NCBI GenBank assembly: GCA_903844845.1
Contig: CAIMVG010000021.1
Span: forward strand, 6,785 to 70,784
Direction: 5' to 3'
Length of the DNA: 64,000 nt
From: an uncultured Dehalococcoidia bacterium
GTDB lineage: Bacteria; Chloroflexota; Dehalococcoidia; Dehalococcoidales; UBA1222
Position 1 is the stretch's first letter, and each line of letters opens with the position of its first letter. A program made the translations under genes and the position numbers. The notes under the pieces were generated by a model. The model was not told where the DNA came from, ran no database searches, and was given only the letters and a program-made list of their open reading frames with translations. Positions 15,353 through 18,518 of this stretch are shown here, in pieces.

Positions 15353-15763
15353 TCAGGCAGAAATGCCGGGTTCTCCATGAACGGTGTGTAACAAACGCAT
15401 TGACGGCCTGTATTCTGCGGAGGCATCGGGCGATTCCCAGACCTCTATCGAATAGAGTTCGAAACCGGGCAGTTTTTTCTGCAGTTCATTGTATATCGTG
15501 GATGCGAGGTTCTCTGAAGATGGATTGATGCCAGTGAACGGCGAAACTTCGTTCAGGTTAGTGTGGTCCAGGCGCTCCAGGACTTCGGCGAGCTTCGACT
15601 TCAATTCTCGAAAATCCAGTGCCAACCCAATGTCATTTAGCTGAGAAGCGCGAACCCTTGCAATCACCCTGAACCGGTGGCCGTGAAGGTTCTCGCATTT
15701 TCCCTGGTATCCCCTCAGGGCATGTGCGGCGTCGAAGTGCCCCTCTACCGTTATCTGGTACAT
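15353..15763 (-). CDS. 6-pyruvoyl-tetrahydropterin synthase / QueD family protein (context suggests a folate-pathway PTPS)
   Basis: HFDAAHALRGYQGKCENLHGHRF carries the CxxxHGH motif. It starts 2 nt after the folK stop. Confidence 0.8.
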   Translation of the reverse strand: MYQITVEGHFDAAHALRGYQGKCENLHGHRFRVIARVRASQLNDIGLALDFRELKSKLAEVLERLDHTNLNEVSPFTGINPSSENLASTIYNELQKKLPGFELYSIEVWESPDASAEYRPSMRLLHTVHGEPGISA

Positions 15764-15765
15764 CG

Positions 15766-16305
15766 TTACTTCTCCTCACCGGCTGTTTTTTCGGGCACAG
15801 TCTCAGGTGGCGGGAGGAATTTGAATACTCCCTGCACCCCCGATTTCAGGTCCGAGAGCATCTGTTTTACTGTTTTTCCGTTTACCGGATGCTTCAGGCC
15901 CGGTGCGATCTCTTCAAGGGGAACCAGGACGAAAGCCCGTTCCTGGATGTGGGGATGGGGGATGGTCAGGGACGGAGTGTCGATGATTTCCTTACCGTAA
16001 AACAGGATATCTATGTCCATTGGACGTGGGCTGTAAGGCGTTGAAGGCACGCGCCCGAGTTTGGACTCGATGCCTTTCAGCAGCGATAAAAGAACTTGCG
16101 GATCCAGTGTGGTGCGGGCAAGGGCCACCATATTCAGAAAACGCGGTTGATCCGGGTTTATTTCCGGAGCGGTGTCGTACACCGAGGATACTTTTTCAAC
16201 ATTCAGTCTTTCGGATAGAAAACCGATGGCTCTGTCGAGGTTCTGTTTGCGGTCACCGACATTTGAACCCAGGCCAAGATAAACACAAATTTGTTCCGTA
16301 TTCAT
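15766..16305 (-). CDS. folK: 2-amino-4-hydroxy-6-hydroxymethyldihydropteridine diphosphokinase FolK
   Basis: VYLGLGSNVGDR...VSSVYDTAP...RPMDIDILFY is the HPPK pattern. It overlaps folP by 4 nt. Confidence 0.85.
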   Translation of the reverse strand: MNTEQICVYLGLGSNVGDRKQNLDRAIGFLSERLNVEKVSSVYDTAPEINPDQPRFLNMVALARTTLDPQVLLSLLKGIESKLGRVPSTPYSPRPMDIDILFYGKEIIDTPSLTIPHPHIQERAFVLVPLEEIAPGLKHPVNGKTVKQMLSDLKSGVQGVFKFLPPPETVPEKTAGEEK

Positions 16306-17186
16306 AACTTGCCTCTCCTCGCGACCGCATCGCTCATCCTTGCAACCCCGGATAAAAACTTCACATCGTGGACCCTGATAATGTCGGCCCCGTGGGCTAT
16401 TCCGATGGCATTGGTGGCTGCGGATCCTTCCAGCCTGTCATCAACGGGGGTGCCGAGTATCGCGCCTATCATGCCTTTACGGGATGTTCCCAGCAGGATG
16501 GGCTTTCCCAGGGACTCCAACTCTGCTAGCCGGCGGATAATTTCCAGGTTCTGGGCCAGGGTTTTACCGAAACCTATACCCGGATCGACGACGATGTTCC
16601 CCTCCGCCACCCCGGCATCGTTGCACAACGCAACGGCGCGCGACAGGTCTCTTTTGATTTCATCCATAATGTCGCCCACGCAAGGATTGTCACGTTGATT
16701 TGAGGTGACGACGATGGGCAGATGATGTGCTGCCGCGAGGCCGGCAAGCCGGGAGTCGAATTTCAGTCCCCAGATGTCATTGATTATATCGATACCGGCG
16801 GCGATTGCCAGTGTGACTACATCGTATTTGTAACTGTCCACACTTATCGGCACGTCGATTGCAAGCCTGATTTTATCTATCGCCGGGATCAACCGTGAAA
16901 TTTCCTCTTCAATAGCGATGGGTTCTGAACCCGGGCGGGTAGATTCTGCCCCGATGTCGATCATATCTGCGCCATCCGAAACAAAACGCAGGGCTTGATC
17001 CACCGCTGCATCGATGACGCTCAGCCCGTCCCCGGAAAATGAATCAGGGCTCAAGTTGACGATGCCCATGACGAATGTGCGCTCGCCCCAGGTAAAAGTC
17101 CGTCCGCGGCAGATGGTGGGCGCAGGTTGAAATTTCAAGAGAGCCCTCCTGGAAAGATTGTATACGGATGAAGAGGGGTTGGGCAA
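16302..17186 (-). CDS. folP: Dihydropteroate synthase FolP
   Basis: MGIVNLSPDSFSGDG, GADMIDIGAESTRPG, DPGIGFGKT and GTSRKGMIG are DHPS hallmarks. The start is TTG. Confidence 0.9.
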   Translation of the reverse strand: MPNPSSSVYNLSRRALLKFQPAPTICRGRTFTWGERTFVMGIVNLSPDSFSGDGLSVIDAAVDQALRFVSDGADMIDIGAESTRPGSEPIAIEEEISRLIPAIDKIRLAIDVPISVDSYKYDVVTLAIAAGIDIINDIWGLKFDSRLAGLAAAHHLPIVVTSNQRDNPCVGDIMDEIKRDLSRAVALCNDAGVAEGNIVVDPGIGFGKTLAQNLEIIRRLAELESLGKPILLGTSRKGMIGAILGTPVDDRLEGSAATNAIGIAHGADIIRVHDVKFLSGVARMSDAVARRGKL

Positions 17187-17211
17187 GGGGAATTAAAATA
17201 CAGGCTAAAAA

Positions 17212-17490
17212 CTAACAGCATTCGGCTGAGTCTATACTTTTACCTTTGAGGGCCGCCTTAATCATGGCCGAAGCGCAGCCAACCCCGCTCCGGACGGATA
17301 TGGCGTCGGCGGGGCAATTGAGTGCGCAGGCCCCGCATTCCATGCAGGCTTCCTTTTTGACCAGTTGTGCCTTCTCTCCCCCGGCGAACACGCCGTGAGG
17401 GCAAACCGTCCAGCACATGGCACAGCCGATACATAGTTCTGGCTTGTATTCGAGCGTATTGACTTTATACGAGTTAAACATAACAAGCAT
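17212..17490 (-). CDS. hgcB: HgcB, 2x[4Fe-4S] ferredoxin of the mercury methylation pair
   Basis: CIGCAMCWTVCP and CMECGACALNCP are present, matching the HgcB signature C(M/I)ECGA. The C-terminus ends in ECC (vicinal Cys). The ATG directly abuts the hgcA stop. Confidence 0.8.
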   Translation of the reverse strand: MLVMFNSYKVNTLEYKPELCIGCAMCWTVCPHGVFAGGEKAQLVKKEACMECGACALNCPADAISVRSGVGCASAMIKAALKGKSIDSAECC

Positions 17491-18483
17491 CTAGTGAACG
17501 AATTTTGCAACGATATTCAGGATGATGCCCATAGTGAAGGAAATCAAAAGCGGGCGGATATAACTGATCATCTCTCCTTTAACCCCGCTTCTGGAGGTAA
17601 AGGTACTGGCTCCTGTGAAATTCAGGGATATATAGGCGGTGACCGGAGGCCAGATTAAAAAGTTGCTCACGGTAGTGAGAACTTTGTGCGCCAGGGTTGC
17701 ATCAGTGCCCAAAACAAGCATATTAACGAGGCTGACTGCCAGTGTGATGACTATGCCGAGGCTCCACCCTTTAGTAGTGAAATCCCGTGTTGGCAGCCAC
17801 GGCAGCAGTAACGGAAACAAAATTGCCCCGCCGACAACGGAGAGGACAACCATCAGAGTTGCGGCCCATCCGCCCCAGAAAAATAGCCCCGCTGCCGCCA
17901 CCAGGGTATAGAGGAGATACCCGAGCATCTCAACCGGGGTGAGCACGACCCTGTCGACAATTCCGAAACGAACGCGTCGCATGTCAGTGGTGGCTGTATG
18001 GGTCTTAAGGTATTCAGGGAGGTCCCCGGACCTCACCGGCCCGTATTCAACTTTGAATCCCGATTGTTTCTTGACGATATGGGCCGAGACGCCGGGCGCA
18101 CTCAGTTGGGGCAGGATGACGGTGCGGTGACGCACTACACGTGCTAGCTCGGAAGTCTCGATCCGTTCGACGACTTCTTCCGTGCCGAAGGTGTGTTTTC
18201 CTGCGGCGCACCAGACATTTACGCCGAATGTGTTGATCACCAGGATATACGCGTCGATGCCTTTAAGGGCCGACCGCAAGGCGTCGAAACTGAGTGTGTA
18301 ATTCGCACTCACGAGAACGGGCGAGTCCTGCCCCGGTTTTCCGAGGGAGTAAAGGCCGGGCCTGACACGGTGTTCGCCGCGTTTCCATCTCAATCGGGCG
18401 AGGAAATGGTCCCAGTAGTCGGCCCATCCCAGGGCGCTGGAAGCCGGGAAAATAGGGATTTCGATTCCAATGCTTTCCGACAT
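17491..18483 (-). CDS. hgcA: HgcA, corrinoid protein of the mercury methylation pair
   Basis: GVNVWCAAGK matches the published cap-helix motif N(V/I)WCA(A/G)GK. The Cys92 codon is at 18208-18210. The C-terminal half has ~5 predicted TM helices. Confidence 0.85.
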   Translation of the reverse strand: MSESIGIEIPIFPASSALGWADYWDHFLARLRWKRGEHRVRPGLYSLGKPGQDSPVLVSANYTLSFDALRSALKGIDAYILVINTFGVNVWCAAGKHTFGTEEVVERIETSELARVVRHRTVILPQLSAPGVSAHIVKKQSGFKVEYGPVRSGDLPEYLKTHTATTDMRRVRFGIVDRVVLTPVEMLGYLLYTLVAAAGLFFWGGWAATLMVVLSVVGGAILFPLLLPWLPTRDFTTKGWSLGIVITLAVSLVNMLVLGTDATLAHKVLTTVSNFLIWPPVTAYISLNFTGASTFTSRSGVKGEMISYIRPLLISFTMGIILNIVAKFVH

Positions 18484-18489
18484 GCGCCC

Positions 18490-18518
18490 ATTTTACTCAA
18501 CACACCCGAAGGGGTCAA
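18490..18518 (-). promoter_or_regulatory. Promoter of hgcA (TTGACC-N17-TAAAAT), 6 nt upstream of the ATG; implies a leaderless mRNA
   Basis: -35 is the reverse complement of 18513-18518 and -10 is the reverse complement of 18490-18495. There is no SD and the ATG is at 18483. Confidence 0.6.

What the first reader, a model, noticed from the sequence alone, without database searches (positions are those of the whole stretch)
15353..18518. hgcAB appears to be the first two genes of an operon continuing into folate/pterin biosynthesis (folP-folK-PTPS)
All genes are on the minus strand. The junctions are 0 nt (hgcA/hgcB), 25 nt (hgcB/folP), a 4-nt overlap (folP/folK) and 2 nt (folK/PTPS-QueD family). 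I saw no terminator-like hairpin between them. The only recognisable promoter (TTGACC-N17-TAAAAT) lies upstream of hgcA. The methyl group used by HgcA is thought to come from methyl-tetrahydrofolate. A physical link between hgcAB and de novo pterin/folate synthesis would therefore make functional sense. I do not recall this arrangement being described as a conserved feature.
Basis: inference. Interest (0 to 1): 0.6.

Follow-up and report, generated by a model that had tools for sequence, protein, structure and literature searches.

The report
hgcAB inserted beside a folate operon
The mercury-methylation genes hgcAB do sit directly upstream of three folate-synthesis genes, but comparison with relatives indicates that hgcAB was inserted once next to an older folate operon that keeps its own promoter, so the link looks like history, not a functional module.

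Summary
The gene order is real. On the minus strand lie canonical hgcA, hgcB, folP (dihydropteroate synthase), folK and a PTPS-I/III enzyme.

Two parts of the observation are wrong. folP starts at TTG 17138, behind an AGGAGG ribosome-binding site, not at TTG 17186. The hgcB-folP gap is therefore 73 nt, not 25. This site is invariant in seven lineages, including two that lack hgcAB.

- **Sister lineages:** they keep the same flanks, recA<>folP-folK-PTPS. In the slot they carry nothing (L090) or a nitroreductase (L174).
- **Close hgcAB+ relatives:** five lineages keep hgcAB-folP. One (L176) has other genes after hgcB.
- **Other hgcAB loci:** none of 80 diverse loci has folP or folK within the flanks held (up to 10 kb). 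None of 80 diverse folP loci has hgcAB.

Best reading: a single insertion of an autonomous, probably leaderless hgcAB cassette into the recA-folP spacer of a Dehalococcoidales ancestor. I found no terminator after hgcB, so read-through into folP remains possible. The finding is ordinary and of low interest.

The parts
18490..18518 (-). Promoter-like site of hgcA. TTGACC-N17-TAAAAT ends 6 nt before the ATG, so the hgcA mRNA is probably leaderless.
   Evidence: 10 of 12 matches. The same TTGACC-N17-TAAAAT-N6-ATG is present in L081 and L084. No Shine-Dalgarno sequence precedes the ATG.
17491..18483 (-). hgcA, the mercury-methylation corrinoid protein (330 aa).
   Evidence: NF040863, 404 bits against a cut-off of 275. 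The cap-helix motif NVWCAAGK is present and invariant in alignment A1.
17212..17490 (-). hgcB, a 2x[4Fe-4S] ferredoxin (92 aa, or 89 aa if it starts at ATG 17481).
   Evidence: NF040864, 110.5 bits against 99. It has two CxxCxxCxxxC motifs and ends in ECC.
17139..17211 (-). The hgcB-folP spacer, 73 nt. It has no significant RNA structure.
   Evidence: Sequence. Fold z-score +0.58. No Rfam match at E up to 1. The homologous spacers measure 68, 134, 165 and 256 nt.
17157..17186 (-). The folate operon's own promoter-like site, TTGCCC-N18-TACAAT.
   Evidence: 9 of 12 matches. CTTGC and TATA.AAT are invariant in seven lineages, including hgcAB-less L090 and L174. A pattern that requires TA[CT]AAT found 15 sites in all loci held at that point (one strand). 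Ten of them are at this position, in loci of five lineages. L174 carries TTGCCT-N17-TAAAAT, read from its printed sequence.
17145..17150 (-). Shine-Dalgarno sequence AGGAGG, 6 nt before the folP start codon TTG 17138.
   Evidence: A purine-rich equivalent is present in relatives.
16302..17138 (-). folP, dihydropteroate synthase (278 aa).
   Evidence: TIGR01496, 270 bits against 162.6. The methyltetrahydrofolate:corrinoid methyltransferase model scores only 28.6 against 259. Homologues are called at 278 aa.
15766..16305 (-). folK, hydroxymethyldihydropterin pyrophosphokinase. It overlaps folP by 4 nt.
   Evidence: TIGR01498, 134 bits against 54. PF01288.
15353..15763 (-). PTPS-I/III hybrid (QueD-like). 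It probably replaces FolB in folate synthesis.
   Evidence: PF01242. Sequence GKCENLHGH fits the CExxHGH signature described in PMC5041015.
14648..15326 (-). Two paralogous 108-aa ORFs (15000-15326 and 14648-14974). They have a hydrophobic N-terminus and no known family, and are probably the last genes of the folate operon.
   Evidence: No Pfam or NCBIfam match. Homologues follow PTPS in hgcAB+ loci and in hgcAB-less L090. The family has only 13 representatives among 1.84 billion proteins.
18750..19769 (+). recA, divergent from hgcA. It forms the conserved left flank of the insertion slot.
   Evidence: RecA is 85-98% identical in all syntenic loci.

Best explanation
Two transcription units lie head to tail.

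1. **hgcAB.** This is an autonomous two-gene mercury-methylation cassette. It is driven by TTGACC-N17-TAAAAT, placed so that transcription should start at the A of the hgcA ATG, giving a leaderless mRNA.
2. **folP-folK-PTPS-I/III-orf108(x2).** This is the housekeeping pterin branch of folate synthesis, in the form typical of FolB-lacking Chloroflexota. It has its own promoter (TTGCCC-N18-TACAAT), a short leader and an AGGAGG-TTG start.

An ancestor of one Dehalococcoidales clade received hgcAB in the divergent recA-folP spacer, upstream of the existing folP promoter. The arrangement was then inherited vertically, along with the rest of this strongly syntenic region.

No terminator follows hgcB, so some hgcAB transcripts probably read through into folP. 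The folate genes do not depend on this read-through, and nothing indicates selection for the linkage.

Shown: gene identities, start-codon correction, conservation of both promoter-like sites, and presence/absence patterns.
Inferred: promoter activity, leaderless start, single insertion, and read-through.
For: - **Gene identities:**
- **folP start at 17138:**
- **Conserved folP promoter-like site:** it is present in W, L081, L084, L085 and L089 (all hgcAB+) and in L090 and L174 (both hgcAB-). The surrounding spacer is unalignable and 68-256 nt long.
- **L090:** plsY-PHP-ymdB-rny-recX-recA<>folP-folK-PTPS-orf109, with a 138-nt spacer and no hgcAB.
- **L174:** the same left flank, with a nitroreductase gene in the slot.
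- **Tree:** hgcAB+ loci are monophyletic in a FolP+FolK+PTPS tree, and L090 and L174 are successive outgroups.
- **L176:** RecA 96% and HgcA 71% identical to the window's, with recA<>hgcAB followed by a molybdenum-hydroxylase cluster and no fol genes.
- **80 species-level hgcAB loci:** no FolP or FolK hit even at E<0.1. Of the 79 loci in which both genes were placed, 65 have at least 2 kb downstream of hgcB.
- **Gene after hgcB in 73 loci:** 91 Pfam families, and none occurs in more than 3 loci.
- **80 diverse folP loci:** no hgcAB.
- **hgcA promoter:** conserved with identical geometry in W, L081 and L084.
- **Composition:** GC and GC3 of hgcAB match the neighbouring genes, so the insertion is old.
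- **Literature:** hgcAB neighbourhoods share no common content apart from a regulator and ars genes (PMC7438021).
Against: - No transcript data exist. Both promoters are consensus matches supported only by conservation.
- The folP site matches only 9 of 12 consensus positions.
- No intrinsic terminator was found after hgcB in the window or in relatives. A long hgcA-to-orf108 transcript is therefore plausible and could be the major one.
- The linkage has survived in five of six sampled lineages of the clade.
- Gain versus loss of hgcAB was judged from a small neighbour-joining tree. A RecA tree placed L089 differently.
Confidence: 0.75

Rival explanations
1. This is a true functional operon. 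hgcA-hgcB-folP-folK-PTPS is transcribed mainly from the hgcA promoter, and the linkage is kept by selection because HgcA draws its methyl group from methyl-tetrahydrofolate.
For: - All genes are on the same strand, and no terminator was detected.
- The order is retained in five lineages with HgcA 68-75% identical.
- CH3-H4folate is the presumed methyl donor (10.1101/510180; PMC11494345).
Against: - The folP promoter-like site is conserved with and without hgcAB.
- The same fol operon stands alone at the same site in L090 and L174.
- The linkage is broken in L176.
- It is absent from 80 other hgcAB genomes, about 20 of them Chloroflexota.
- The spacer length is not constrained: 68-256 nt, with hairpin repeats in L084.
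- Folate is a general cofactor. Added CH3-H4folate did not raise methylation in ND132 lysates.
Confidence: 0.12
2. hgcAB was ancestral at this site and was lost, or replaced by other cargo, in L090 and L174. It was not inserted in one clade. The two units are still independent, but the history is reversed.
For: - The recA-side spacer is a variable slot. It holds a nitroreductase in L174, HicB plus a 72-aa ORF in L084, a 77-aa ORF plus a 512-aa ATPase in L089/L177, and a 95-aa ORF in L081.
- The RecA tree is not fully congruent with the fol tree.
Against: - The fol tree puts all hgcAB+ loci in one clade, with the hgcAB-less loci outside it.
- More distant folP-folK-PTPS loci also lack hgcAB.
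Confidence: 0.1
3. The folP-like gene is not a dihydropteroate synthase. It is instead a pterin-binding methyltransferase (MeTr/AcsE-like) that loads HgcA from methyl-tetrahydrofolate.
For: DHPS and MeTr share the Pterin_bind domain, PF00809. A weak match to the MeTr model exists.
Against: - TIGR01496 DHPS scores 270 bits against a cut-off of 162.6. The MeTr model scores 28.6 against 259.
- The gene overlaps folK and is followed by PTPS-III.
- Orthologues 62-68% identical sit in hgcAB-less loci.
Confidence: 0.02

Closest known systems
hgcAB gene pair of mercury methylators (from memory: Pseudodesulfovibrio mercurii ND132, Parks et al. 2013), as surveyed in PMC7438021
   Same: The corrinoid protein has the NVWCAAGK cap helix and a membrane domain. 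It is followed directly by a 2x[4Fe-4S] ferredoxin with C-terminal cysteines. The pair behaves as a self-contained unit that occurs in many unrelated genomic contexts.
   Different: No ArsR- or MarR-type regulator gene lies upstream. Such genes precede hgcA in about a third of 72 other loci and are reported in PMC7438021. Here a promoter abuts the ATG, and recA is the divergent neighbour.
folP-folK-PTPS-III clusters of FolB-lacking bacteria, Chloroflexi included (Pribat et al. 2009, from memory; signature motifs in PMC5041015)
   Same: The PTPS paralogue carries an active-site Glu (CExxHGH) and is clustered with folK and folP. The genes are translationally coupled.
   Different: A lineage-restricted small ORF family (orf108) is appended. 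In one clade hgcAB lies upstream.
Wood-Ljungdahl acs clusters, in which the corrinoid iron-sulfur protein (CdhD/AcsD-like) sits next to the pterin-binding methyltransferase AcsE (general knowledge)
   Same: A CdhD-related corrinoid protein lies next to a Pterin_bind-domain protein. This resemblance makes the arrangement look meaningful.
   Different: The pterin-binding protein here is a bona fide DHPS, not a methyltransferase. Its adjacency to hgcAB is clade-specific.

Membership tests
HgcA (mercury methylation corrinoid protein) | Full-length match to NF040863 above the curated cut-off | tested here: met
   404 bits against 275, covering residues 14-328.
HgcA (mercury methylation corrinoid protein) | Cap-helix motif N(V/I)WCA(A/G)GK with the Cys ligand | tested here: met
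   NVWCAAGK at residues 89-96. N89-G95 are invariant in alignment A1.
HgcA (mercury methylation corrinoid protein) | Mercury methylation activity | not testable with these tools
   Needs culture work or heterologous expression.
HgcB (mercury methylation ferredoxin) | Match to NF040864 above cut-off, two CxxCxxCxxxC motifs, C-terminal Cys pair, position directly after hgcA | tested here: met
   110.5 bits against 99. Motifs CIGCAMCWTVC and CMECGACALNC are present and the protein ends in ECC.
Dihydropteroate synthase (FolP) | Match to TIGR01496 above cut-off, and not to the MeTr model | tested here: met
   270 bits against 162.6. MeTr NF005719 scores 28.6 against 259. The Sul1-4 resistance models are all below cut-off.
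HPPK (FolK) | Match to TIGR01498 above cut-off | tested here: met
   133.7 bits against 54.1.
PTPS-III, or PTPS-I/III hybrid (FolB bypass) | Active-site signature ExxHGH, or CExxHGH for the hybrid | tested here: met
   GKCENLHGH. The signature is taken from PMC5041015.
PTPS-III, or PTPS-I/III hybrid (FolB bypass) | Physical clustering with folK/folP | tested here: met
   A 2-nt gap after folK. The trio is conserved in all related loci.
PTPS-III, or PTPS-I/III hybrid (FolB bypass) | Absence of folB from the genome; conversion of dihydroneopterin triphosphate to hydroxymethyldihydropterin | not testable with these tools
   Only 64 kb of the genome is held, and no enzyme assay is possible.
Single operon hgcA-to-PTPS (one transcription unit) | No internal promoter | tested here: not met
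   The conserved TTGCCC-N18-TACAAT lies at 17186-17157. This is a prediction, not a mapped start site.
Single operon hgcA-to-PTPS (one transcription unit) | No internal terminator | tested here: met
   None found in the window or in relatives. L084 has T-tail-less hairpins in its spacer.
Single operon hgcA-to-PTPS (one transcription unit) | Gene order conserved across genomes beyond what vertical inheritance explains | tested here: not met
   Five of six lineages in one clade keep the order. Outside the clade the count is 0 of 80. The same fol operon stands without hgcAB in L090 and L174.
Single operon hgcA-to-PTPS (one transcription unit) | A transcript that spans the hgcB-folP junction | not testable with these tools
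   No transcriptome data are available here.

The most novel reading that the evidence does not exclude
In this Dehalococcoidales clade, read-through from the strong, leaderless hgcA promoter adds substantially to expression of the pterin branch of folate synthesis. Cells that express the methylation machinery would then also raise their folate cofactor supply. This would be a lineage-specific regulatory coupling that arose from a chance insertion and was then kept.
Probability: 0.1. Interest if true: 0.4.

Novelty: new member of a known kind. Interest (0 to 1): 0.15.

Why it matters
A dedicated folate-supply operon tied to hgcAB would have given a genomic handle on the unresolved question of the physiological methyl donor of HgcA. 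The comparative evidence says it does not exist: the neighbourhood reflects one insertion event.

Three things remain useful:
- a corrected folP start and a predicted internal promoter;
- a probably leaderless hgcA promoter with no regulator gene beside it, unlike about a third of the other hgcAB loci sampled;
- the recA-folP spacer identified as a variable cargo slot in these genomes.

Tried and rejected
- **RNA elements:** the Rfam search of the whole window at gathering score, and of 14400-18800 at E up to 1, found nothing. No riboswitch or leader explains the junctions. There are no tRNAs in the window.
- **Terminator after hgcB:** only a 4-bp stem followed by a T-rich run. The fold is no better than shuffled sequence. 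The same holds after orf108b.
- **Collection scans:** They returned only distant relatives (at most 60% and 59% identity). These served as negative controls but did not sample the close clade. The clade had to be sampled one protein at a time, which used all 12 look-ups. Two of those returned gene tables without DNA.
- **Recent horizontal transfer:** considered and rejected, because the GC and GC3 of hgcAB match the neighbouring genes.
- **FolP as a MeTr-like methyltransferase:** considered and rejected.
- **Literature:** six full-text searches were run. In the four that paired hgcA or hgcAB with folate-synthesis terms (DHPS; gene neighbourhood plus folate; folP, folK or pterin; tetrahydrofolate plus genomic context), no listed paper links hgcAB to folate-synthesis genes.
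- **orf108 structure:** no structure prediction was attempted.
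Full report
**What is in the sequence.** On the minus strand of 14648-18483 lie seven ORFs in a row.
- 17491-18483 is a canonical HgcA. It scores 404 bits on NF040863 against a cut-off of 275 and carries the cap helix NVWCAAGK.
- 17212-17490 is a canonical HgcB. It scores 110.5 bits on NF040864 against 99, has two CxxCxxCxxxC motifs and ends in ECC.
- The next three ORFs are dihydropteroate synthase (TIGR01496, 270 against 162.6), HPPK/FolK (TIGR01498, 134 against 54) and a PTPS/QueD-family protein.
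- The PTPS reads GKCENLHGH. This fits the CExxHGH signature of the PTPS-I/III hybrid that can replace FolB in folate synthesis (PMC5041015).
- The DHPS is not a disguised methyltransferase. The methyltetrahydrofolate:corrinoid methyltransferase model scores 28.6 bits against a cut-off of 259.
- Two paralogous 108-aa ORFs without any family match follow, after 26 and 25 nt.
- Next comes a strong promoter-like site (14586-14558, 11 of 12 matches) in front of rplU-rpmA-rpmE.
- recA is the divergent neighbour upstream of hgcA.

**Where the observation needs correcting.** Three results place the start at TTG 17138.
1. AGGAGG lies 6 nt upstream of that codon.
2. Database homologues 99% identical are called at 278 aa.
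3. In L081, L085 and L174 the in-frame upstream stretch contains no start codon, while the N-termini align from this position.

The hgcB-folP gap is therefore 73 nt. The consensus scan finds TTGCCC-N18-TACAAT at 17186-17157 inside it. No terminator-like hairpin lies in any junction, and the junction RNA folds no better than shuffled sequence. No Rfam family matches the region.

**Relatives that carry hgcAB.** HgcA homologues 68-75% identical come from Dehalococcoidia/Dehalococcoidales. Five lineages were examined: L081-83, L084, L085/86 and L089/L177, plus the window itself. All show recA<>hgcA-hgcB-folP-folK-PTPS...rplU-rpmA-rpmE-DUF1385. The synteny is therefore conserved in close relatives.

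The hgcB-folP spacer is not conserved. It measures 73, 68, 256, 165 and 134 nt and cannot be aligned, except for one block. That block is CTTGC[CT][CT]-N17/18-TATACAAT, lying 12-27 nt before the folP start. In L084 the spacer also holds three perfect 9-10-bp hairpins.

A sixth lineage, L176, has RecA 96% and HgcA 71% identical to the window's. It shows recA<>hgcA-hgcB followed by a molybdenum-hydroxylase cluster, with no fol genes. An HgcA at 62% identity (L087) sits among Rrf2 and arsDA genes.

**Relatives without hgcAB.**
- L090/L091 (FolP 64%, RecA 87% identical) have the same left flank, plsY-PHP-ymdB-rny-recX-recA. After a 138-nt spacer come folP-folK-PTPS-orf109, with no hgcAB. The spacer contains TTGCCC-N17-TACAAT in the same position.
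- L174/L175 (FolP 68%) have the same flank but carry a nitroreductase gene in the slot. It is followed by TTGCCT-N17-TAAAAT and then folP.
- The folP promoter-like site is thus invariant whether the upstream neighbour is hgcB, recA or a nitroreductase gene.
- A pattern that requires TA[CT]AAT found 15 sites in all loci held at that point. Ten of them are at this position, in loci of five lineages.
- A neighbour-joining tree of FolP+FolK+PTPS puts the hgcAB+ loci in one clade, with L090 and L174 as successive outgroups.
- The simplest history is one insertion of hgcAB into the recA-folP spacer, upstream of the existing folP promoter.
- The recA side of the slot is variable in other ways too. 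It holds a 95-aa ORF in L081, HicB plus a 72-aa ORF in L084, and a 77-aa ORF plus a 512-aa ATPase in L089/L177.

**The wider picture.**
- A scan of species-representative genomes returned 80 hgcAB loci with HgcA 40-60% identical. They include Anaerolineae and other Chloroflexota, methanogens, Desulfobacterota and Bacillota.
- None has a FolP or FolK match within the flanks held, even at E<0.1. One has a PTPS homologue 5 kb away. Of the 79 loci in which both genes were placed, 65 have at least 2 kb downstream of hgcB.
- The gene after hgcB in 73 loci falls into 91 Pfam families, and no family occurs in more than three loci.
- The gene before hgcA is an ArsR-type regulator in 12 of 72 loci, MarR-type in about 10, MazE/AbrB-like in 8 and a SAM methyltransferase in 5. 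This agrees with PMC7438021.
- Conversely, 80 diverse folP loci contain no hgcAB.
- With roughly 70 different contexts sampled, one lineage in which the neighbour happens to be cofactor-related is about what chance would give.
- None of the papers listed by the searches that paired hgcA or hgcAB with folP, folK, pterin, dihydropteroate synthase or tetrahydrofolate describes such a link.

**How it most likely works.**
- hgcAB is a self-contained cassette. Its promoter-like site is conserved in W, L081 and L084 with exactly 6 nt between TAAAAT and the ATG, and no Shine-Dalgarno sequence. This is the geometry expected for a leaderless mRNA (inference).
- The folate unit folP-folK-PTPS-orf108 is translationally coupled (a 4-nt overlap and a 2-nt gap). 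It has its own, weaker promoter with a roughly 12-nt leader that starts at the AGGAGG.
- Because nothing resembling a terminator follows hgcB, some read-through from the hgcA promoter into folP is likely.
- The GC and GC3 of hgcAB match the neighbouring genes, so the insertion is old.

**On the proposed functional logic.** CH3-H4folate is the presumed methyl donor, but the immediate donor is still unknown. Adding CH3-H4folate did not raise methylation in ND132 lysates (10.1101/510180). In methanogens, other carriers such as methyl-tetrahydromethanopterin have been proposed as the donor (PMC11494345). Folate is a general cofactor, and the window also encodes SHMT 22 kb away. Proximity of its biosynthetic genes therefore carries little specific meaning.

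**Verdict.** The adjacency is real and is conserved within one clade. The claim of a single functional operon is not supported by the comparative data, although partial co-transcription cannot be excluded without transcript mapping. The case is ordinary: a known gene pair next to a known operon, joined by a single insertion.

Noticed in passing
window 14648-15326 (-): Two tandem paralogous 108-aa ORFs (36% identical) with a hydrophobic N-terminus and the conserved motifs NIWPD..Y and YWTFE..P.W..H. They match no Pfam or NCBIfam family. Homologues follow PTPS in both hgcAB+ and hgcAB-less relatives. The family has only 13 representatives among 1.84 billion proteins. It appears to be a lineage-restricted small membrane or secreted protein attached to the folate operon.
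   Followed up: partly
window 18709-18723, and the same place in L081, L084, L085, L089, L090 and L176: TAGAACAAATGTTAC lies next to recA and is conserved in those loci (L089 has GTAAC in place of GTTAC). It resembles the GAAC-N4-GTTC LexA (Cheo) box of Gram-positive bacteria and of Dehalococcoides (from memory), so it is probably the SOS operator of recA. L174's recA-proximal spacer, as printed, does not contain it.
   Followed up: no
recA-side spacer: L081 7649-7936, L084 7179-7880, L089 1190-2972, L177 3057-4839, L174 5138-5920: The space between recA and the folate operon is a variable cargo slot. Besides hgcAB it holds a nitroreductase gene, a HicB antitoxin plus a small ORF, a 77-aa ORF plus a 512-aa HATPase_c_3 protein, or a 95-aa ORF, depending on the lineage.
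   Followed up: partly
L176 6672-10996: In one close relative (Dehalococcoidales MAG GCA_049520695.1) hgcAB is followed by a Fer2/MoCoBD/FAD_binding_5 molybdenum-hydroxylase cluster. In two other contigs that same type of cluster follows folP-folK-PTPS. This hints at a deletion or rearrangement that removed the fol genes in L176.
   Followed up: partly
window 2334-5135 (-): A 933-aa ORF fuses COX1, FixO and two cytochrome c domains, a cbb3-type oxidase (CcoN-O-P) in one polypeptide. An oxygen reductase in a genome that carries hgcAB is worth a look.
   Followed up: no
window 14535-14586 (-): The rplU promoter-like site TTGACC-N17-TATAAT, with TG before the -10 box, is conserved in L084 and L089. 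It is followed by a hairpin (ACCTTTGTCAAGCGGAGGT in relatives) that would sequester the GGAGG. The conserved L21 N-terminus ([13 protein letters not shown]) begins after an ATT codon placed 7 nt behind GGAGG, so an ATT start or a leader-based control is possible. No Rfam match.
   Followed up: no
window 16302-17138 (-): The best NCBIfam hit of this FolP is the mobile sulfonamide-resistance model Sul4 (275.6 bits, far below its cut-off of 600). This fits the proposed Chloroflexi origin of sul4 (PMC5732528).
   Followed up: no
L084 9328-9434: The 256-nt hgcB-folP spacer of this relative holds three perfect 9-10-bp inverted repeats built from related TCCC/GGGA-rich units. They look like small repeat elements or T-tail-less terminators.
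   Followed up: partly
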